This document shows, piece after piece, positions 6,325-64,000 of a stretch of 64,000 nt of DNA (position 1 is its first letter; every line of letters starts with the position of its first letter). The notes under the pieces were generated by a model. It was not told the DNA's origin and ran no database searches. It was given only the letters and a program-made list of their open reading frames with translations. The stretch spans positions 19,904,001 through 19,968,000 of the forward strand of contig NW_024704743.1 of the NCBI RefSeq assembly GCF_018977255.1, in the 5' to 3' direction. Source of the stretch: Callorhinchus milii (lineage: Eukaryota). The position numbers and the translations under genes were made by a program.

Positions 6325-7049
6325 ATAAGCTGATGGTACAATCTTAAACGGGGTGAAGGAACAGAGAAACCTGGGGGTTCACATAAGTAAATCTTTGAAG
6401 GTGGCAGGAAAGGTAGATAAAGCTGTTAAAGAAGCATACCGGATACTAGGCTTTATAAATAGGGGCATAGAATACAGAAGTCAGGAATTTATGATGAACA
6501 AAGTACTGGTTAGGCCTCAGCTAGAGTACTGTGTTCAGCTCTGGGCACCACACTTTAGGAAGGATGTCAAGGCATTGGAGAGATTTACCAGGGTGATACC
6601 AGGAATGAGGGACTTCAGTTATCAGGAGGGACTAGAGAAGCTAGGATTATTCTCCTTGGAGCAGAGAAGGTTAAGAGGAGACTTAATAGAAGTTTTCAAA
6701 ATTATGAGGGGATTCAATAGAGTGAACAAGGAGAAACTATTTCCACTGGCGGGTGGGTCGGTCACCCACGGACACCGATTAAAATAGTTGTTAAAAGACA
6801 TAGAGGGAAGGTGAGGAGAAATTTTTTCACACAGCGAGTTGTTCGGATCTGGAATGCATTGCCTGAAAGGGTGATGGAAGTCGATTCGATAACAACTTTT
6901 AAGAGAGTAGATAATTATTTGGGGAGGACAAGTTTGCAGGGCTATGGGGAGAGAGCGGGGGAGTGGGATTGAATTGGATAGCTCTTTTCAAAGAGCCAGC
7001 ACAGATACGATGGGCCGAATGGCCACCTTCTATGCTGTATAATTTTATC
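6325..7049 (+). mobile_element. CR1 LINE 3' fragment (ORF2 C-terminus and 3'UTR)
   Basis: ORF 6353-6787 has LVRPQLEYCVQLWAPH and LGLFSLEQRRLRGDLIEVFKI; typical 3' end gatgggccgaatggccaccttctatgctgta. Confidence 0.92.
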
Positions 7050-7805
7050 TGGGGAAGGGTTGTTGCAAAGACATAGTAACAAACTTTGTTCTCTTTTCCA
7101 ACACACAAATATCGCATCCAACTTCTGGTTTTATTTGCACAATTAAAATAGCCTGTCAACAAAATTGTTCTCGTTGACAAAATTAAATTTTGATTCTACC
7201 CAGGCATAAATACATTAATCCAGGCAGATTGTTAATGTTAAATCTTTAACATTTAATGTTCAATCTTTAATGTAATGTTAAATCTTTCAGAAACTAATTA
7301 AATTAATAAATGTTTCAATAAATGTGGAATTAGCTTTAGTTTCTGTAAATTATACCTCAGAAATGTTCACCCATGATATTAACCATTTTCGTGGTAGTAA
7401 AGTCAATAGTATATAAATCACCAAGAAGCCTGTAACTATAAAATCAATAAAGTGATTTAAATCATCACCTTATCACCTAAGCCTGAGCGTAGCTAGGCAT
7501 CATGTAAACAGACAGTCGTTTTCTGATCAATGAAATCCAGCAACAAAATTACCTACTATATCTCTTCCTTCGTAAATATTTTCTTTGATCTGGTTGATAA
7601 GCTGTCAGTATTTTTCCTTTAAACCGTTTAAAACCCTTTCAACCTAAGGTTTGTCAATTGTAAAAAGATGTGAGCGATTGTCAGTTTCGTCAATTATAAT
7701 TCAAAATACATTTTGAACATTAATAATAATAATCCTTGCATTTAATATAACGCTTTTTCACATCTTCGAGACGTTTCAAAGTGCTTCACAGACAATACTC
7801 AAAAG

Positions 7806-8070
7806 TGAAAACAAAATCAGAAGTCGCTGGGAGCACTCAGCAGGTCGGGCAGCATCTATGGAAAAAGGAAAAGCGAATCAATGTTTCGCATCCACGACTC
7901 TTCGTCAGAACTGAGGGCTGAGGGTTTGAGTTCTGACGAAGGGTCTGGACCCGAAACATTGACTCACTTTCCTTTCTCCATAGATGCTGCCTGACCTGCT
8001 GAGTGTTCCCAGCGACTTCTGTTTTTTGTTTTCAGATTTCCAGCATCTGCAGTATTTTGTGTTTTGTTCT
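7806..8070. mobile_element. Penelope-like element remnant: ~105-bp inverted repeat with hammerhead-like cores, inserted in a SINE tail
   Basis: 7806-7912 is the reverse complement of 7929-8034; CTGACGA...GAAA core on each arm; the interrupted SINE tail (7721-7807) resumes at ~8071. Confidence 0.7.
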
Positions 8071-11000
8071 ATGCTCTAAAGAAAATTGACTATACATTTT
8101 GACTGTACATTTTATAAGCTAAACTGAATCAAACTGCCCTGAGAAAAGTGACTGAATGAGTACTGAGACATAATGATGGATTGGAAAAACTGTTCTTCTC
8201 GATGGTTTACCTGTAAAATTCACAACCTTTCCTTTAGCTTCAAGGGGAAGGAAAACTGTGGTAACTTGCCTTTACTTGTTTTCTAAAGCTGGAAGCTGGT
8301 GTATAAATTCCACAGCATCTGTAAAGCAATCAACAAAAATGTTTTAGACAAAATTGCTGCCACACAACAAAACATGCACGAAACCTGCGTATTCTGGCTG
8401 AGTAATAGCAACAGAAGACATCACTTCCAGCGTGCTCCAGTGAATGGATTTTCCAATATCCAGGACATTTCGACGATTGAAGCCCTGCAATGCCACTTAA
8501 AAAAATACCCTTTAAAGAGCATTGCAAAGCTTCTTTTGCAACAGACTGGTTGTCAGAACTTGTGTAGATACAAATGACACTGACTGTTCTATTTAAGTTC
8601 AAAGAGCACTATTTTTCTCGACACTTGTGGTGGTGGTGGTGGTTGGGGTGGGGGGAGTGACTATAGCTTGATGGATAAGACACCTGTGAAGGTGATTCTT
8701 CATGGCTGTAATTGTTCCAAACGATAGCTGTGAAGCACTGCTGCATTCTGCTCAGCCCACCCAGATTCTAAATTGTTTTGGATCATAAAGTTTTTTAAGA
8801 GAGATAATGGAGTTCTCTGTCAGGAAATTTTAAAGGTGTTAAAAAAGGTTGTTGGTGCAAACATTGTCAAGCTAAATGCAATGCAATGCCTCTGACTATC
8901 ATTACATCGTCACTGTGACTCCTGGCTTTATTTTCCAATAAAGCTGGGCCTGACTTTATTTTCCAATAAACACTGAAAACGCCTGCTGAGAGCAGTTTTT
9001 AATAATTTCTTATTCCCTACATAGAACAATGCAATATTTCCCCTACTGAGCTGGTAGATACAACAAGAGCAACCTAATGTTCTATTTATGCTTTGCTTTT
9101 TGAATCGATTTAGTGAAACAAAGCTATGTTAAATCCACAGCAGAAAGGATGGACAAAGCCCACAAACCCCCATTTCAACAACAACTTCCTCTTTGACCTT
9201 GCTTACGGTTACCTCCTCTCGCCACCCACCCCCCCCTCCCCACACCGGCTCAGCATCAGGCTCCGCTGCTGTTTAACTCTCCAAGATGCTGCCTCGCTTG
9301 AAGGGTGCTGTGTAATTGCAAGTTGCTGTTGCTTCCAGCGCCTTGGGACGTCCTCCAAATGTGAAAGGCGCTATACAAATGTAATTTTGTTGTTGTTGTT
9401 GAAATAGTCCGATAAACATTCTTGGGTAGTCTGATTACATCGCCCTCAAGAATTTATCACATTATCAGCACTTTAACAAAAAGTAAACTGCGTTCACCAC
9501 CCGTTAAAGAAGCTTAGCACACATAACCTCAAAAGTAATTTTGGAGCAGGAAATAAGTCGATTTTGAGACATCTTGAGGATATGTTATATCTATATCAAA
9601 TGCAAGGATTGTTATTATTATTATTATTATCATATTTAGCAGTGAATCGTTGGAAGTGATTTCAGATTGTTTCCAGCAGTACAATTGGGGTGGAAATCAT
9701 CAATACAAACCTTGAACTGTAAATGACCAAAATACATCTTGTATTCTTACAATTGATTCAAAATAGCTAAATTAAATCCAGATTTCAAGATGCTGGATAT
9801 TTCCAGGAAAATGTTTCATGCAAAATAATTTTAAAATGAGAGCCTACTGATAAAGGAATATAAAACTATCTGTTCTACTGTGGTAATACACTACCATCAG
9901 AGTACTTTGAAAGTACGAAGGCGACAACAAAATGGCTTTTAATTTATTTTTAATTCTCAAGGATAATTAATCAAGGTGCTTATTTGAATTCCAGTAGAAG
10001 AAACTTATGCACAAATTTGTGGCTTAGTCATGCAATAAATCTAGGGATTTCACAACCTGGTCCAAGAGGTTTCAATTCCTGTTAATCATGGACAAACTAC
10101 AACAATAACAACTTGCACTTGTATAGCCCGTCCACACAAGGTAGTATCTCAATTATTATTGGCAACATGTGCTACACATGACATTTTTTCACATCATATT
10201 GCAAAATACTGCAGTTGCCTTTTTTCTCTCCTCCACGGCTTACAAGAAAAGGATAAAATTAGAACATTTGCTGTATAGCACCATATTGTCTGGACAAAGA
10301 GGATTGACCAATGTCTTACAACGGTGCTTGGAATCTCCCAGTGACAAGGGCATTCAAGGTTGCTGTTACCAGAAGCAGTTCAGTTGCTACAGTTGTTTGA
10401 AAAAAGATTTCCTCCTCCGACAAACAAGACACATCAATTAGTGTGGCCCTGATGATTTTTTTTAGTCAGTCAGTTATCTGACAAATGTGGAAACCCATCA
10501 ACATGCTTAAAAGTCTCCAAAATACTGAGATTTCCAGATTTGTATGGCTTTCTATATGGAGGGGCCTCACTCTTTCTCTGAGGAACTGCCTGTTTTCCAA
10601 ATCACAGAAAATTAGGTGGATCAACAACAGCTTCCATTTATATAGGCGCAAGTTGACAAAGGGCATGATTTGGGAATCCCAGTGTGTTCATTGGGGTACG
10701 TCTGCAGTTTAAGCAGCTTAACCACACATCTTACCACTGCAAAGAATAATAATAATAATCCTTGCATTTGAAATAGTGACTTATCAGGGATTTGGCTTGC
10801 AGTGTTAATAGAACCAAGTCAGAATAATCCCTGGCCACAGCATAGCCCTACAAGTCCACCATCACCAGTGCCCTGGAGCACTGTGAACTAGCTCTGTTCC
10901 AAGCAGTATGGTCACTGGTTGGACATTTCAATTCGTATTTTTAAAACGGAGATAGATAACAACAACTAAAACTTGGATTTATATAGCGCTCTCCACGCCG

Positions 11001-20640: not shown

Positions 20641-21599
20641 AAATAAACATGCTCAAAGTCACATTTATAAAATGTAATTATGAGCCATGTCAGGCAGCAC
20701 TGGGCAATGTACACACCAACAAAGGGAAAAATCACCATTCTTATTAGATTAATACCTAGAATTGGAGTGATTTGTTATCAGCTGATTTTATTTTCTTAGG
20801 GCATTATCCCTAGAGCAGGTTGTCAAGTTTCTCGGCACACATCGTTTGCTCATTAATGAATAGCGGGCAATCCCTTGATAAAACTATGCAGAACACTATA
20901 CGCTGTAAATATTTTGCAAAGATTAACTGAATCGTCCAATGAGGTATCTTCAGAGGAAGCAAATCACCTTTTTCTACTGGTTCCGTGTGCACCAACCTAT
21001 CCATATCGCTGACGAGTCAGTTAATTTAGCGAATCTCCTACCCATTTTCTTGCCCCCTGTTCCTACCTGCTATCTATTACCTCTCAAGTATTACCTTGAA
21101 AAACACCCTCCAACAAACCTCAACCAGTCAATGAACCTGACATGTCTTGTACTGGATAGTCCAGGAGAATCCTTTGCTGTCTTCTCTTGGCGTAAATGCC
21201 TCTTTCGCTACCATGAGCCTTCCATCAGCCCGAGGGAAGTAACGAGCTTTGCTAAGTGGCACAGAAGGCTTCATATCTCATCCTTGCCTCACCATCAGAT
21301 TGAATGCTGCATCATGATTCACTGCTCACTGTCATTCTGCCTTCAGCTTGTGGCATCTTAATCATTCAGAAGTCACCCAAGAAACCTTATCTCTTCTGAT
21401 AACTTTTGTAATTCTACTATTAGATCTGCTAAATGTAACTTTACAGTTCAGTACATCCTCAGATAAGTCAAGATAATTTACCTTCTGCCCATAAACCACT
21501 CCTCTCAATCAGGTTCTCCTCCTTACGTGGTGCTCTTTGTAATGCTCCTGAGAAAAAGCTATGGCTATAGCTCTTGGAGTCAGACACTGAAAAATTAAA

Positions 21600-23364: not shown

Positions 23365-24340
23365 AACAACAACAACTTGCATTTCCTCTCACACAGTGTA
23401 GATGTTGGAGCTGTGGATGTTGGAGCTGGGGAGACCGGCAAGGAGGGCATTTGAAAAGTCGAGTCAGGAAGTGACGAACACATGGACGAGTGTTTCAGCT
23501 GCATCTGGGGTAAGGTATAGTTGGAGGCGGTCAATGTGGCAGAGATGGAGGAAGGCAATCCTGGTCAGGGACCAGATGTGGGGAAAAAAGGACAGCTGTG
23601 GGTCGAACCTGACGCCTACGCCTACGTTGCGCACTGGTTCGGTGAGTCTGAGGGACAGGCCGGGGAGGTTGAAGACATCATTATCACAGGACAGAAGCTG
23701 TTGATGGAAGCCAATGTACACTTAGTTGCACTCATCCAGCCTTAATGTCCACCAGAGAAGCCAAGAGAAGATTGGCGGACCTCGAGTCGCAGCTGTAGGT
23801 TTGTGTGTCATCCACATACATGTGGAAGTTTATCCCGTGTCTGCGGATGATATTGCCCAGAGGGAGCATATAGTTGAGGAAGAGGAGGGGGCCAAGGATG
23901 GAGCCCTGGCGTACACCACAGATGACCAGGCAGGGGCAGGAGGGGAAACCGTTTGAAGAGACAAAGTGAAGGCAGTTTGTTGGGAAAGCCTCGAAGCAGT
24001 ATAGTGTGCTCCCACTGAGGTGGATGAAGGAGGAGAGGTTGTGGATGAGGATGGTGTGGTCGACTGTGTCAAATGCAATGGAGCAGTCCAGGAGGACGAG
24101 GAGGCAGAGGGAGCCTTGGTCACAGAGGTGAAGGATGTCATTCATGACTTTGACAAGTGACGTCTCTGTGTTATGGACAGGGTAGAACCCAGACTGGAGG
24201 GGCTCGAGGAAGGAGTGGAGGGAGCAGTGAGAGTAAAGCTGGTTAGCAGCAACACCTTCCAGAGCTTTGGCAGGAAGGACAGGTTAGAAATGGGATGGCA
24301 AGACAATTGAGAGAAGGCATCAGAACTATAAAGGAATTTT
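23365..24340 (-). mobile_element. L2 LINE fragment with RT domain, internally deleted
   Basis: ORF 23732-24145 LLVLLDCSIAFDTVDHTIL...GVRQGSILGPLLF...HMYVDDTQ; ORF 24142-24420 PISNLSFLPKL; (AAC)n tail at ~23365. Confidence 0.9.
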
Positions 24341-29000: not shown

Positions 29001-30348
29001 ATTAATTGTGTTGTCAATGGGAATCAACATCTTTTGAGCCTTTGAGTGGTATAATACAATACTTGATAATGACAAACATCTGAAAAAATCCAATGTGCTC
29101 ATCCAACATTTCAATGTTAATTTTGTTAATAATTCACGGTTAAGTGATCCACTGCGTCTACACAATTTTTAAAGACCACAAAAAATATTTAATCTTTATA
29201 TTGTTGCAAATAATTTAATGCAAATTAAGCATTCTACAAAGACAAAATATCTCGGGAGTGAAACTGCAAGAACTTATGCATTCATCTATTCATGCGGTCG
29301 TCAACAAATAGTGCACAGATAGAGGATTAGATTGTGTGCTGGTATCTTTGATCAACATGAAATATACAAACTTGAATTATTTCAGGTAGCAGGTAATGAA
29401 AGCCTAAAACATCTCCCTCGGTGTACACAGACCTTCAGAGATCAAAAAATGAGAAAGCAATCAAATACAATTTTAGAAGGAAAATCAGGATGACCATCAT
29501 TTTAAATATTTTTGCAGCAAAGTCATGACTGTTGCATTCAGAACTGACACCAGTTTGTTCCAGTGTGTGAATGTGTGCGTGAAGATGTATGTGAATGTAT
29601 ACGTCAAAAATGTTAACAATCAGAACATCACACAGCATCACATGCACTTCCAGACTCGATTTAAACTAAAACTGGTGATTTCCGCTCACTTATGTAAACA
29701 TACTGACATGGTACTTCTTTCAGGCTGACACTTCAGCATGTTACGAGCTAATCAAAGTAGAATCCCGTTATAATGCATTTCATCATAGCCCAGGTTCGCT
29801 TGAAGGCAACAGTGTGGATCCCACATTTACTTACTAACAAATAGGCACGGAAAGCCTCAAAATCGCTTGCTTCAAAATCCCAACAAGATTCCCAATACAT
29901 GTTAAAAATGACCACATATGCAATGAGCAGCAAGTGCTATCAACGGCAACATGATCCTTCAAAATCAGCCATTATTAAGTGACATTTTGAAGCGAGCCGA
30001 CTTTCCACATACAAAACATATAGGGAAGCATTGATCAGCCTTCGTGCCCTGTTACAGCAAATGTTGAACCCAGACTACAGTATTATAATGCAGCTCCAAT
30101 GCATCTGAAATTATCAAATAATACCACCGTCCATGTTCAGACATGGTCATTGCACCACACATTTACCCCTCTTCCCTCTCACTCACTCCCACCAGGCAAT
30201 CAATGTTTTCAGAACAGTCTACTTTAACCCTTCCACACAAGAATGCAACATATTTTTACTAAACCATTCAGTCCACACAGAAATATTTTTAAACCATCAT
30301 AGAGAACATATCCTTCACTGAAGGCGCCGCACGCAGAGTATTACATAC

Positions 30349-30456
30349 ATTACTGATTTGTTCTTGTGTCCTTTTTAATCTTTGCATTTCAGGAGTATCG
30401 GTAACAATGCTGAACCCCAGTTTACGGCTCTTCTCAAAGTTTTCTTTGTATTTGAC
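30349..30456 (-). CDS. NEBL: LIM-nebulette (LASP2) internal coding exon, second nebulin repeat (equivalent to exon 4), 108 nt, phase 0-0
   Basis: ttttcttttcttccag|GTC AAA TAC ... ATC AGT AAT|gtatgt gives [36 protein letters not shown], in frame with the 54.6 kb exon. Residues VKYK, SIVTDTP and RLKRTQEQ fit NEBL rather than LASP1 (VRYK, SVVADTP, RIKKTQDQ), from recall of the human proteins. Confidence 0.9.
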
Positions 30457-32251
30457 CTGGAAGAAAAGAAAAAAATTGCATTTTATCAGATTAAAAGCAG
30501 CGTCCAAATAAATAACTTCATCTTTTTAACACATGTCTCTCTGGTTTAACACGTTGGGCCTACTGAGAGATATTTATGTATTAACACAGCATCTTTCTTG
30601 GAGATGCTGACGTGCATTTACATTCACTTTCCCAACCTTCTTTTATAGGATATATAGGGTCAATGACTGTGGTGTGATCTTGTCAATTGGCAGCTCCAGG
30701 GTATTTCTACCAAAAATGATGCTCCCACCTCCCAATACGGAAGGTGACAGCAAGAAAGTAAGTGGAAGCTTTTAAGAGGTAGAAAAGTTAGAACAAAGGG
30801 GGTTTGAAACAAGTATAAAGCTTTTTTAAAAAGCAGGACATACTAAATAAAACAAAAGAGGTGTAGCTGGAGAGCATCAGTAAAGTTTCAAATGTTTTTA
30901 CTTTAAATTGTTAAAAGTTTCTGATTAATATTAAAACCAGGAAGCCTCTGCAAAAGCACTTTGGGATTGATATGATAAGGCACTATATGAAATCTGAATA
31001 TTAAACACAAGGATTATTATTTATATTATTGGTCAGGACACCAGGGGAAAATTCCTTACTCTTTTGAAACATTGTCAAAGGATCTTTAACTGCCTGAGCA
31101 GACAGGTGGGACCTCGATTCAACAACTCATCGCAGGAATTTTCTTTTCAAAGAGCAGGCACAGAAAAAATGTGTCGAATGGCCTCCTTCTGTCCTGTATA
31201 ATTCTATGATGGGACCTCCATCGATACAGTGACTACCCTAGAATTGCACTAGAGCATCAGCCTAGACTTACATTACTTCTGATCTGCAGTGCTCATTGAT
31301 GCCAGCTAAAGTTCCACATTGTTTATTGTACATCAGTTTATTACATCAGTGGAACTGAGGTAACTGTGAGTATTAAAGCAAAAGTATTTAAAAGATCCAT
31401 TATTTTTGGTAATGCATTTGGTCAGCCTCTCTCATTCATACAGCGCTGGCATAAAACCCTATATGTACTGCATTGCCAGAGCTACGTCCTTCAGATGAGC
31501 CATTAAATTGAGGACATGTCTGACTGCTCCAGATAGCACAATTTCATAAGAGAAGGTAGTTTCTATCGGTGTCCAGACCAACAATCCCCAAAATAAAATT
31601 GGGCATTAATTTCATGGCTGTTTGTGAAGAACGTTGGGTGTAAATTGGCTGCAATGCTCGCCGTCAAAATAAAATCATTACAGTTTACAGTAAGACGTGG
31701 GAAGCACTTTGAGATGTCCTCCCGATGTGAAAGGCGCTGTATCAAATTTAAGTTCTTTTTACATTATAAACACATCACAACAACGAAAAGAGGAATTATC
31801 CTTCCCTTCTTCAACCAGGTCGGCTGAATATTTTTCCTTGAAGGTACCATCCCTTTAAATTGCTAGCACCACACAAAGATGTGTTTTCAATTTCAAAATG
31901 GTCTGGAATGATTACAGACACTGTTGGGTACTGTAGGAAAAAAAATCAGCTATCCCAAGCTCTTATAACCACTTAACAAAACCATTTGCTCCTCGTTAAT
32001 ACAGTATTTGAAATAACCATATGCTGCTAAAAAAAATGGTATTTTAAGCAGCATTTGAGATGTGCTGAACGCATTGTACCGTTCAGAAGCTAATAGACCA
32101 ATTGTCCACAATCATGACAATCATCACATTAGTTTTCTTCTTTGGCAGACTAAGAGCAGTGTTGGTGTATTGCAGCCTGGCTTGCTCATACGGAAAAGTA
32201 CAAAATATCTCCATGCTCCTGAAGTAAAATGTACAGCACTTCAATGACGTT

Positions 32252-50475: not shown

Positions 50476-51187
50476 ACAACAACAACAACAACAAATTACA
50501 TTTGTATAACGCCTTTCACGTCGAGAGGACGCCCCAAGACAAGCCAGGGATTTGGACCTGAGCACAGGGTTGGGATCTGGGGGCAGGTGGAGGGCAGGGA
50601 GAGTAGGGGTAGGAGGTGGCAGAAGGCAGGGTCGAAGAGGAGGGTCTTGAGCTGTGTCTTGAAGGAGGCAAGGGAGGTAGCGAGGTGAAAGGACTGTGTG
50701 GGATGGAGTTCCAAAGGGAACAGGGAGGCTGAAGGACCGACCGCCGATGGTTGAGTGGGCCGGGCAATGTTGCGGAGGTGGGGGAAGGCAGAGCAGGTCA
50801 TGGCATGGATGTGGGACAGAAAGGACAGTTGAGGGTCAAACAAGTTGGAGGCAGAGAGATAGAGTTGGGTGTCATCTGCATACATATGGAAGTTGACCCC
50901 ATGTCTGCGGATGATGTCACCAAGGGGGAGTATACACATGCTGAAGAGGAGGGAACCAGAGCACTGAGGAACACCGGACAAGACAGTGCGGGGGCTGGAA
51001 GAGAAGCCGTTTTTTGCAGGCAAAGTTGAGACAGTGTGAAAGGTAGAATTTGAACCAGTCAAGGAGAGAACTGTGAAGGTTGAGGTGAGAGACGAGGCAG
51101 TGGAGGATAGATCAAGGAGGATGAGGAGACAGAGGGTGCCCTTGTCACAGGTGGACAAAATGTCATGTGTCACTTTGACCAAGGATG
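50476..51187 (-). mobile_element. Internally deleted young L2 (RT motifs plus tail); source of ORF 50496-51182
   Basis: [24 protein letters not shown]; (AAC)n tail; sequence jumps relative to the 23.4, 25.5 and 52 kb copies. Confidence 0.9.
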
Positions 51188-51651
51188 TTAGTCACTCAAT
51201 CCACGACTATTTGTGGGATACCACAGTGCTTTGCCCACAAAAATACAATCAATTCACTTTACAGTATATTCTGTGAAGCGCTTTGAGACATCTAGACGAT
51301 ATGATAAGGCGCAATATCAAGTGCATGGATTATTAATTATTATTATGCGGTTTTAGCTGGTTGACTCCAGCAGTATCCCAACACACTCTCTCGGTTCCCC
51401 AAGCTTTGGCTTTTGACAACCTACACCTAATACTTTCCAGAATTAAGTAAACAGGATGCATCCCTTCAGGGACAAAATGAGCATTCCATTCCAACATCTC
51501 AGGAATTTCCTTGTACAGATGGGATGTATGAAATTCTCAGTTTGGTTTGAACACACTTAAGATTTGGTGCTGGGTTTCTGCATGTTTCAGACACCTGGCT
51601 GACCAACACAAATTCTCCTCGGAAACCTGCATTGTACAATACAATCCAAAT

Positions 51652-62944: not shown

Positions 62945-64000
62945 ACAAGGGACAGAAAACCCTAGTGGGAGTAGTTTATAGACCCCCGAACAGCAGTCAC
63001 AGTATCTCTCAAAGTATAAATCAGGAAATTAGCAGAGCATGTAGTAAAGGAAAAACATTAATTGTGGGTGATTTTAATCTGCACATAGATTGGGACAACT
63101 AAATTGGGAAAAGTATGATAGAGGAAGAGTTTATAGAATGTATTAGAGATAATTATCTAGATCAGTATGCCGAGGAGCCAACCAGGGAACAGGCCATATT
63201 AGACCTTGTTTTGTGCAATGAAGCAGGACTGATCAGCAAACTGGAAATTAAGGCTCCTCTAGGGCAAAGTGATCATAATACGATGGAATTTAGCACTAAG
63301 TTAGAGAGAGAAGTAGTTAAGTCTGAAACAAAGGTTTTAAATTTAAGTAGAGCCAATTGTGCTGGTATGAGAGAGGATTTAGCCAAAATAAACTGGGAAA
63401 TTAGATTTAAGGATATGACAGTAGACCAGCAAAGGCAGACATTTAAGGAGATAGTGCAAAATTCCCAGCGAGCACGTATTCCTTTGAGGAATAAGAATGC
63501 CATGGGAAAGGTGGCCCAACCGTGGCTTACTAGAGCAGTTAGGGAAAGTATAAAGTTAAAGGAAGAAGCCTATAAAGCAGCTAAGATGAGTAGTAAACCC
63601 GAGGATTGGGAGAACTTTAGGGATCAACAAAGGAGAACCAAAAAAGTGATTAAGAGGGAGAAAATGGAATATGAGGGCAAACTAGCGAGGAACATAAAGA
63701 CAGACTGCAAGAGTTTTTATAAGTATATAAAGAGGAAGAGGCTGTCAAGGGTAAATGTGGGTCCGCTACAGTCAGAGACAGGGGGAATTATAGTCGGGGA
63801 CAAAGACATGGCAGAGTTATTAAACAAGTACTTTGCTACTGTCTTCACCTTAGAAGACACTGAAAACCTACCAAGCATAGAGGGGAACCAAGAAGAAAAT
63901 GTTAGCGAGTAACTTGGAGGAATTAATATTAGTAAAGAAATGGTTTTAGGTAAATTATCGTGTCTTAAAACTGATAAATCTCCTGGACCTGATGGCCTAC
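62945..64000 (+). mobile_element. 5'-truncated CR1 LINE ORF2 (end of APE endonuclease, linker, start of RT region), inactivated, running off the window
   Basis: Translates as KGQKTLVGVVYRPPNS...IVGDFN...PTREQAILDLVL...LGQSDHN...PWLT...KSFYKYIKRKR...LNKYFATVFT...KSPGPDG, with in-frame TAA stops at 63100 and 63910. Confidence 0.93.

What the first reader, a model, noticed from the sequence alone, without database searches (positions are those of the whole stretch)
7806..8070. Divergent pair of minimal hammerhead ribozyme motifs in a long inverted repeat (Penelope-like)
Seen on the plus strand: GAGTT (7928-32), CTGACGA (7933-39), A, stem II GGGT-CTGG-ACCC (7941-52), GAAA-C (7953-57), ATT, GACTC (7961-65). 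GAGUU pairs with GACUC to close stem I, giving type I hammerhead topology with almost no stem III. A mirror copy on the minus strand (7876-7912) reads CTGACGA-AGAGTCGTGGATGC-GAAACATTG, with a damaged stem II. The arms 7806-7912 and 7929-8034 form a ~105-bp hairpin. Known: Penelope-like retroelements carry minimal type I hammerheads whose palindromic stem III is completed in dimers. Inference: GAAACATT is a CpG-decayed GAAACGTT palindrome, so these copies are probably impaired relics. The minus-strand copy would nonetheless be transcribed within the NEBL pre-mRNA.
Basis: partly seen in the sequence, partly recalled or inferred. Interest (0 to 1): 0.7.

Follow-up and report, generated by a model that had tools for sequence, protein, structure and literature searches.

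The report
Head-to-head Penelope-like stub, decayed hammerheads
This is a real but ordinary 263-base scar: two back-to-back copies of the end of a very abundant Penelope-like jumping element, each with a worn self-cutting RNA motif, in an intron of a cartilaginous-fish nebulette gene, where the two halves pair with each other and are unlikely to cut anything.

Summary
Arms 7806-7912(-) and 7929-8034(+) are 89% identical. The right arm meets the published minimal-hammerhead descriptor (1 hit in 200 shuffled windows) and the left arm fails it.

Public contigs laid on the right arm show a very abundant repeat (13,479 contigs in one run) that ends at 8066-8068. Head-to-head pseudo-LTRs with a TSD, a one-sided 30-40-bp tail and a minimal hammerhead are the described signature of endonuclease-bearing Penelope-like elements. 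I could not show the RT/GIY-YIG ORF link or stem covariation.

Both copies have lost the palindromic helix III. In either transcript the antisense arm is made first and sequesters the motif (32-52 kcal/mol folding penalty). The host gene is NEBL on the minus strand, matching Callorhinchus milii. Verdict: new member of a known kind, most likely an inert relic. One oddity remains: eight private substitutions all lie on the left arm.

The parts
7721..7805 (-). 3' part of a tRNA(Ala)-derived SINE, the insertion target (left side)
   Evidence: blastn of the left flank hits many SINE copies in the window up to the last base; five of them lie 155-245 bp behind tRNA-like heads found
7793..7805 (.). 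Left target-site duplication (13 bp, decayed; may extend to 7809)
   Evidence: 10 of 13 identical to 8069-8081; 2 of 3000 random position pairs score as well at fixed ends, 26 of 3000 with +/-2 slack; SINE paralogues hit by both flanks overlap by 12 nt
7806..7912 (-). Left arm: inverted pseudo-LTR end without tail; its outer 4 nt (TGAA, 7806-09) equal the next SINE target bases (microhomology)
   Evidence: 5 of 7 SINE paralogues shown continue TGAA after the site
7876..7912 (-). Damaged minimal hammerhead, sense to NEBL: broken stem II, weakened stem I, non-palindromic helix III
   Evidence: fails the descriptor; hammerhead fold +1.9 kcal/mol against an alternative MFE of -5.1
7913..7928 (.). 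16-nt junction/loop; read on the minus strand it weakly resembles the family's upstream bases, so it is probably the 5' end of the left arm
   Evidence: inference: 5-7 of 12 letters match the loose-end consensus rows, counted by eye; sequence
7928..7965 (+). Minimal type I hammerhead motif, antisense to NEBL: stems I and II intact, 1-nt loss in loop II, helix III palindrome lost at 7958
   Evidence: descriptor hit; isolated MFE is the hammerhead fold, -8.7 kcal/mol; family letters
7929..8034 (+). Right arm: direct pseudo-LTR end
7984..8079 (+). ATG right after a pyrimidine tract and TAG, with a 31-codon open frame through the tail; possibly the N-terminal stub of the element's ORF (unproven)
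   Evidence: translation; no homologue found
8035..8068 (+). 34-nt one-sided tail; degenerate repeat (period 31) of the preceding unit
   Evidence: family cover drops from 147,973 to 80 depth units after 8072, with loose ends at 8066/8068; 22 of 37 matches at lag 31, 29 of 5000 shuffles as good
8069..8081 (.). Right target-site duplication
8070..8101 (-). Continuation of the same SINE (right side of the insertion)
30346..30459 (-). NEBL (LIM-nebulette) exon, the nearest conserved exon upstream in transcript direction
   Evidence: 37 of 38 aa identical to C. milii protein P0005
54591..54686 (-). Preceding NEBL exon
   Evidence: 30 of 32 aa identical to P0005, mismatches at the exon edge

Best explanation
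7806-8068 is a single, old, heavily 5'-truncated insertion of an endonuclease-bearing Penelope-like element (PLE), reduced to two head-to-head pseudo-LTR ends. Proposed mechanism: (1) The element's GIY-YIG nuclease cut both strands of an AT-rich site in a SINE about 13 nt apart (TSD shown; enzyme inferred). (2) Each freed 3' end primed reverse transcription on uncleaved element RNA, one at the outer start site (8068) and one at the inner site 34 nt upstream (8034-equivalent), the latter helped by a 4-nt match to the target (ends and microhomology shown; priming inferred from the anole PLE, which extends both strands from two internal start sites). (3) Both cDNAs ran through the hammerhead, stopped at or just past its 5' edge and were joined head to head (structure shown; process inferred). 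The hammerhead belongs to the parent element, where it works, if at all, as a dimer or with protein help. Here it is most likely inert: helix III has lost its palindrome in both arms, the NEBL-sense copy has a broken stem II, and in either direction of transcription the antisense arm is made first and captures the motif in a ~105-bp duplex. Any effect on NEBL would come from that intronic dsRNA (for example as an editing substrate; recalled knowledge, untested), not from self-cleavage.
For: min-HHR descriptor hit, 1 in 200 shuffled windows (descriptor). Very high-copy family with a sharp 3' end at 8066-68. Family-majority G at 7958 restores the ACGU palindrome: 4-bp helix -1.7 against +5.2 kcal/mol. 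TSD and interrupted SINE. One-sided 34-nt tail. 13 of the 15 joints shown (21 more not shown) are opposite-strand, so inverted pairs recur in the family. Literature match: inverted pLTRs with TSD and optional 31-bp tail (PMC3846280); inverted 5'-truncated copy and 30-40-bp tail (PMC8557442); 34-37-bp repeat in Penelope (PMC2377424); two RT start sites, both strands extended, HHR cleavage not needed (PMC11167929); opposite-strand min-HHR pairs (PMC4209133). Sequestration: 34 of 37 hammerhead nt pair with the other arm at P>0.9 on each strand; forcing the fold costs 52.2 (minus) and 32.1 (plus) kcal/mol. Decay at the helix III CpG (C>T 10-13%) is about that of the non-catalytic CpG at 8013/14 (C>T 6-13%, G>A 6-10%).
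Against: No RT or GIY-YIG ORF was linked to this family: protein searches with both frames found nothing, phmmer gave one spurious tandem-repeat hit, ESM Atlas gave no usable hit, and collection scans gave no family member. Rfam finds no hammerhead. Covariation is untested. The two arms have aged unequally: 8 substitutions sit on the left arm where the right arm carries the family-majority letter, which a single event with equal ageing does not predict well (binomial 0.008 for substitutions alone, 0.04-0.09 with indels; post hoc). The ends here are T/G-rich on the hammerhead strand, whereas the anole PLE starts in an AC-rich loop. No listed contig spans the head-to-head junction (laid one arm only).
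Confidence: 0.85

Rival explanations
1. Two separate insertions of different age: an older left arm, and a younger copy that later inserted next to it or overwrote the right arm by ectopic gene conversion.
For: 8 of 8 private substitutions lie on the left arm; the right arm equals the family majority except at 7958, loop II and the T-run. PLEs can nick their own pLTR (PMC11167929).
Against: One TSD encloses both arms and the SINE resumes in register on both sides. Both arms share the minority letter at 7958. The tail is on one arm only, as in single PLE events. 'Family majority' is biased, because contigs were laid on the right arm and three of the eight sites lie at thinly covered alignment ends.
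Confidence: 0.08
2. A self-standing fold-back non-autonomous element (MITE-like or retrozyme-like) that is copied as a ~260-nt hairpin unit, rather than an independent truncation product.
For: Very high copy number, recurring opposite-strand joints, and many copies whose shared 5' sequence starts near the hammerhead edge.
Against: The 13 opposite-strand joints shown have 13 different coordinate pairs, with 1-2 contigs each per run, so junctions differ from locus to locus. The 16-nt spacer is not high copy (bin 7913-7932: 720 depth units against 10^5-10^6 in the arm). No tandem array, which defines non-LTR retrozymes.
Confidence: 0.04
3. The NEBL-sense hammerhead has been co-opted and cleaves or processes the intron.
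For: It lies sense within the NEBL transcription unit. Intronic type I hammerheads exist in amniotes (PMC6155905, passages).
Against: This copy fails the descriptor, its fold is unfavourable even in isolation, it costs 52 kcal/mol in context, and it is the more mutated arm.
Confidence: 0.02
4. Chance resemblance to a hammerhead inside an unrelated repeat, or an assembly fold-back artefact.
For: No Rfam hit; no ORF link.
Against: Descriptor chance rate of 1 per 200 windows; the family majority restores the palindrome; arms differ at 12 columns; TSD present; two DNA-like runs each have a contig identical over 8041-8500.
Confidence: 0.01

Closest known systems
Minimal hammerheads (min-HHR) of metazoan PLE pseudo-LTRs (Cervera & De la Pena 2014, PMC4209133; main text parts 1-2 of 4 and the supplement PDF text read, figures only as garbled text)
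   Same: CUGANGA + one extra nt, G10.1-C11.1 closing a 4-5-bp stem II, GAAA-N-N-U-H, short stem I, palindromic C-G at 15.2-16.2 in the family majority; dispersed copies; opposite-strand pairs
   Different: No cartilaginous fish among the 56 motifs listed in Fig. S3 as I read it. The two cores here are only about 25 nt apart, against ~100-700 bp reported. Both copies have lost the palindrome.
Inverted-pLTR insertions of EN+ PLEs: Adineta Pen2/Pen2a (PMC3846280; passages and Discussion read), general scheme in Craig et al. 2021 (PMC8557442; passages), D. virilis Penelope 34-bp repeat (PMC2377424; passages)
   Same: Head-to-head inverted pLTRs, TSD around the whole unit, 30-40-bp tail on one end only, 5' truncation
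   Different: No ORF remnant at all (263 bp). TSD is 13 bp against 8-10 bp in Adineta. 16-nt unpaired junction rather than an overlap or palindrome. Clade (Poseidon, Neptune or other) not determined.
Poseidon of Anolis, PAc (Frangieh et al. 2024, PMC11167929; parts 1-2 of 4 read)
   Same: Hammerhead about 100-130 nt upstream of two alternative 3' ends (here 94 and 128 nt from the start of stem II; first site at 111-118 nt in PAc); AT-rich target; uncleaved RNA used as template
   Different: PAc starts in an AC-rich loop and its ORF begins at stem II. Here the ends are T/G-rich and the only ATG-led frame seen starts at 7984.
Animal non-LTR retrozymes (PMC7229834, passages; bioRxiv 10.64898/2026.07.22.740005, parts 1-3 of 5 read)
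   Same: Type I hammerhead, probable PLE pLTR origin, non-coding
   Different: Retrozymes are head-to-tail tandem arrays, mostly with canonical hammerheads, and make circular RNAs. This is an inverted pair that cannot form the tandem dimer.

Membership tests
PLE min-HHR (type I) | Descriptor: stem I 3-7 bp, CUGANGA(+N), stem II 3-7 bp, loop 3-10, GAAANNUH - right arm | tested here: met
   (my re-implementation of Fig. S7); 1 hit in 200 shuffled windows
PLE min-HHR (type I) | Same descriptor - left arm | tested here: not met
   stem II broken at its second pair
PLE min-HHR (type I) | Palindromic 15.2-16.2 allowing dimeric helix III - these two copies | tested here: not met
   ACAU gives two C-A mismatches, +5.2 kcal/mol
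PLE min-HHR (type I) | Palindromic 15.2-16.2 - the family | tested here: met
   G at 7958 in 76-87% of depth in 4 of 4 runs
PLE min-HHR (type I) | Covariation in stems I and II across the family | tested here: inconclusive
   Only per-column data. 7961 G>A (3-10%) keeps a stem I pair; loop II base varies (G/A/T); a second subfamily has A at the first stem II position and one contig piece seen in X1 and X2 shows the matching T. No alignment of copies was obtainable.
PLE min-HHR (type I) | Self-cleavage as dimer or with protein | not testable with these tools
   needs an assay
EN+ Penelope-like element insertion | RT plus GIY-YIG ORF attached to this pLTR in some copy | tested here: inconclusive
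   none in the 263-bp insert; blank searches; no whole genome held
EN+ Penelope-like element insertion | Inverted 5'-truncated copy adjacent at the 5' end (head to head) | tested here: met
EN+ Penelope-like element insertion | 30-40-bp tail at one end only | tested here: met
   34 nt, 8035-8068
EN+ Penelope-like element insertion | Target-site duplication around the whole unit | tested here: met
   13 bp, 10 of 13 identical, SINE resumes in register
EN+ Penelope-like element insertion | Dispersed, multi-copy | tested here: met
   13,479 and 11,167 contigs laid in two DNA-like runs
Non-LTR retrozyme | Head-to-tail tandem units, each with a hammerhead | tested here: not met
   two copies, inverted
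Rfam hammerhead families | Covariance-model match | tested here: not met
   helix-III-less motifs are not expected to score (inference)

The most novel reading that the evidence does not exclude
The palindromic helix III of the PLE minimal hammerhead acts mainly as an RNA dimerisation signal, like a retroviral kissing site, rather than a cutter. It would hold two element RNAs in one dimeric RT-endonuclease particle, so that both nicked target strands are primed from the two start sites and both cDNAs end at the hammerhead's 5' edge, giving these head-to-head stubs. This fish family, with very many copies and many TSD-flanked inverted pairs, would then be a natural data set for reading the PLE integration intermediate. 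Shared versus private arm variants (here one shared minority letter and eight one-sided substitutions) would show whether the arms come from one RNA, two RNAs of one source, or two sources.
Probability: 0.07. Interest if true: 0.6.

Novelty: new member of a known kind. Interest (0 to 1): 0.2.

Why it matters
The locus itself matters little: it is one decayed stub among very many. The family has modest value. It appears to be a very abundant PLE hammerhead family in a chimaera-like genome. I found no paper describing it: searches (listings only for most hits; Repbase and Dfam could not be consulted, and bioRxiv supplements were closed, including the tables of the 2026 retrozyme preprint, which sampled one chondrichthyan). 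The origin of head-to-head PLE junctions is still debated (self-priming on an antisense template, against internal two-site priming). Many short TSD-flanked pairs like this one would allow a statistical test.

Tried and rejected
Rfam: no hammerhead; the miRNA-family hits reflect the long hairpin and lie far below gathering score. Own-genome search: no genome held.

Pattern scans for family members: viral contigs 0 and 0; GTDB genomes 0 and 0; phages and plasmids blastn none. Metagenomes gave 1 locus, L001, where only the 22-mer matches inside an unrelated long coding frame, with no hammerhead beside it; rejected as chance.

ORF link: two frames of the right arm gave no candidate. phmmer with the 31-aa frame gave one hit, P0096, a tandem-repeat protein matched through summed weak stretches; rejected. 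ESM Atlas gave no usable hit.

Expression: no RNA holder listed. The two 'RNA?' runs have no cover over most of the unique right flank, and contigs cannot show expression or editing. Neither counts as evidence.

Depth ratios (about 96,000x and 81,000x the unique flank) are summed contig depths, not copy numbers; used only as 'very abundant'. The depth fall 5' of 7973 is confounded by subfamily differences and the loop II indel, so I did not read it as truncation at the cleavage site.

Fold-back self-priming of a single cDNA: disfavoured, because the tail-less arm cannot template the tail and the spacer resembles upstream sequence of the left arm rather than the right (weak, 5-7 of 12 letters).

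Full report
OBSERVATION. The arms 7806-7912(-) and 7929-8034(+) align over 108 columns at 88.9% and differ by 9 substitutions and 3 one-base indels. A 16-nt spacer lies between them, and no other copy was found in the window. 7790-8080 folds into one hairpin (-181.2 kcal/mol, z -20.3). Rfam finds no hammerhead. I re-implemented the min-HHR descriptor printed in the supplement of Cervera & De la Pena 2014. It hits one place in the window on both strands, the right arm, against 1 hit in 200 dinucleotide-shuffled windows; the left arm fails. In isolation the right motif's minimum-energy fold is the hammerhead fold (-8.7 kcal/mol), while the left motif's hammerhead fold is +1.9.

HOST. An exon at 30346-30459(-) matches nebulette; the best identities are to Callorhinchus milii proteins (97-100% over the region searched, against about 80% for sharks, rays and tetrapods). 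tblastn with 9 of the 95 hits places two LIM-nebulette exons at 54686-54591 and 30459-30346 on the minus strand and does not find the next exon in the window. For the long isoforms (P0005, P0006) the element is therefore intronic, with the left arm sense (inference). One shorter model (P0042) ends its coding sequence at 21512, which would leave the element beyond it. The genome is inferred to be C. milii or a very close chimaera.

TRUE EXTENT. Earlier scan notes on this genome mention 14-15-bp TSDs, which prompted me to look here. The left flank 7721-7805 is the 3' part of a tRNA-derived SINE with many copies in the window, and the right flank resumes the same SINE, overlapping by 12 nt in paralogues hit by both flanks. 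7793-7805 and 8069-8081 agree at 10 of 13 positions. With ends fixed at the independently defined boundaries, 2 of 3000 random pairs score as well (26 of 3000 with +/-2 slack; a few draws skipped). The insert is thus 7806-8068, 263 bp. The outermost four bases of the left arm, TGAA, are also the next four bases of the SINE in 5 of 7 paralogues shown, a microhomology. The right arm has a 34-nt extension, 8035-8068, absent from the left arm. It is a degenerate repeat of the unit before it (22 of 37 at lag 31; 29 of 5000 shuffles and 0 of about 5000 random 34-mers as good).

FAMILY. I laid 4 of the 24 listed runs (X1, X2, X5, X6; all contigs) on 7913-8500 at 80% likeness; 13,479, 11,167, 4,101 and 2,682 contigs were laid. 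In X1 summed depth peaks at 1.14 million against 11.9 on the unique flank, stays at 148,000 over 8053-8072 and falls to 80 beyond. Loose ends cluster at 8066/8068 and 8025/8026 (688 loose-end rows not shown). These depths are no copy number but show a very abundant dispersed repeat. At 7958 G makes up 76, 77, 81 and 87% of depth, and 7957 C>T makes up 10-13%. The family is thus palindromic ACGT and decays on both strands, at about the rate of the non-catalytic CpG at 8013/14. An extra base after 7945 (G in 34-64%, A in 5-17%) shows that the family's stem II is GGGTC/GACCC with a 3-nt loop; the left arm keeps that length and the right arm has lost a base. Loose-end consensus rows show two subfamilies that share AGTTCTGACGAA and have little agreement further upstream. 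13 of the 15 joints shown (21 more not shown) are opposite-strand, all at different coordinate pairs, so inverted pairs are common but their junctions vary. Covariation could not be tested; the hints are listed in the membership table. In X1 and X2 a contig matches 8041-8500 without differences; it reaches 28 letters into the element, short of the tool's 31-letter bridging rule. No listed piece spans the head-to-head junction.

WHAT IT IS. The combination is the described signature of endonuclease-bearing PLE insertions. An inverted 5'-truncated copy lies next to the 5' end and a 30-40-bp tail often sits at one end only (PMC8557442, passages). Inverted pLTRs come with a TSD and an optional 31-bp tail, most often head to head (PMC3846280, passages and Discussion). 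Penelope has a 34-37-bp terminal repeat (PMC2377424, passages). Min-HHRs occur in pLTRs, mostly as dispersed single motifs and sometimes as close opposite-strand pairs (PMC4209133, parts 1-2 of 4 and supplement text). The defining RT/GIY-YIG link was not shown, so I file it as a PLE stub by architecture, with the clade open.

HOW IT AROSE. In vitro, the anole PLE protein cuts and extends both target strands, starts at two internal sites whose spacing is the tail, and does not need hammerhead cleavage, which is itself protein-assisted (PMC11167929, parts 1-2 of 4). Applied here by inference: a staggered cut gave the 13-bp TSD; one strand primed at the outer site (8068) and the other at the inner site (8034-equivalent) with 4 nt of microhomology; both cDNAs copied uncleaved RNA through the hammerhead and were joined at their truncated ends. 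The shared A at 7958 fits one source RNA that was already mutated. Independent decay (the A state is at most 13-24% of depth) or conversion between arms would also give it. Against a simple single event stands the asymmetry. At eight substitution sites the left arm's letter is not listed at 5% in any run, so the right arm has the majority letter (binomial 0.008, or 0.04-0.09 with indels, post hoc). The table is polarised on the right arm and three of these sites are thinly covered, so this is a lead, not a result.

DOES IT WORK? Probably not. Helix III as found would hold two C-A mismatches (+5.2 against -1.7 kcal/mol for the majority letter). In 600-nt context 34 of 37 hammerhead positions pair with the opposite arm at P>0.9 on either strand, and forcing the hammerhead fold costs 52.2 (NEBL-sense) and 32.1 kcal/mol. 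In a divergent pair the antisense arm is always transcribed before the sense motif, so co-transcriptional folding offers little escape (follows from the layout). Even intact min-HHRs cleave weakly and only as dimers, and 8 of 9 Xenopus retrozyme dimers tested did not cleave. No expression evidence was obtained.

NOVELTY AND VERDICT. Eight earlier AI notes on this genome describe what reads as the same kind of stub and reach the same reading; they are unchecked and count as leads only. I found no paper on this family (searches, mostly listings; repeat databases and bioRxiv supplements not available). It is a new member of a known kind and most likely an inert relic: interest 0.2. The boldest reading not excluded is that the palindrome dimerises two template RNAs and so produces such head-to-head stubs (probability 0.07, interest 0.6 if true). 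Hammerhead numbering beyond the positions named in the cited papers, ADAR action on intronic hairpins and the retroviral dimer analogy are recalled, not from calls.

Noticed in passing
window 7806-7912 vs 7929-8034: Unequal ageing of the arms: eight substitutions (7 transitions) lie on the left arm where the right arm has the family-majority letter; two of them create CpG sites. Unexplained.
   Followed up: partly
window 7961-7986 and 8019-8035 (+): Two splice-acceptor-like stretches in the pLTR (branch-point-like GACTCAC, pyrimidine tract, TAG then ATG at 7984; pyrimidine tract, CAG at 8033-35). The left arm carries the first one sense to NEBL, so exonisation is conceivable but the site is buried in the hairpin.
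   Followed up: no
window 2461-62782, eight loci: tRNA-Ala-like SINE heads pass the Rfam tRNA threshold and six are called by ARAGORN; they are SINE heads rather than tRNA genes (inference from SINE bodies behind five of them).
   Followed up: partly
window 21512-21595 (-): A C. milii UniRef model (P0042) uses this stretch as an alternative last coding exon of nebulette.
   Followed up: no
window 6329-6787, 23732-24283, 50496-51191, 63103-63912: Open frames that look like LINE (CR1/L2-type) reverse-transcriptase or endonuclease remnants by eye; not searched.
   Followed up: no
window 8253-8332: Extra depth in the two RNA-like runs over a short stretch with single-copy depth in the DNA-like runs; probably paralogous sequence at 80% likeness.
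   Followed up: no
window 7232-7289 and 8921-8970: Short AT-rich tandem duplications (3 x 18 nt; 2 x 22 nt at 28-nt spacing).
   Followed up: no
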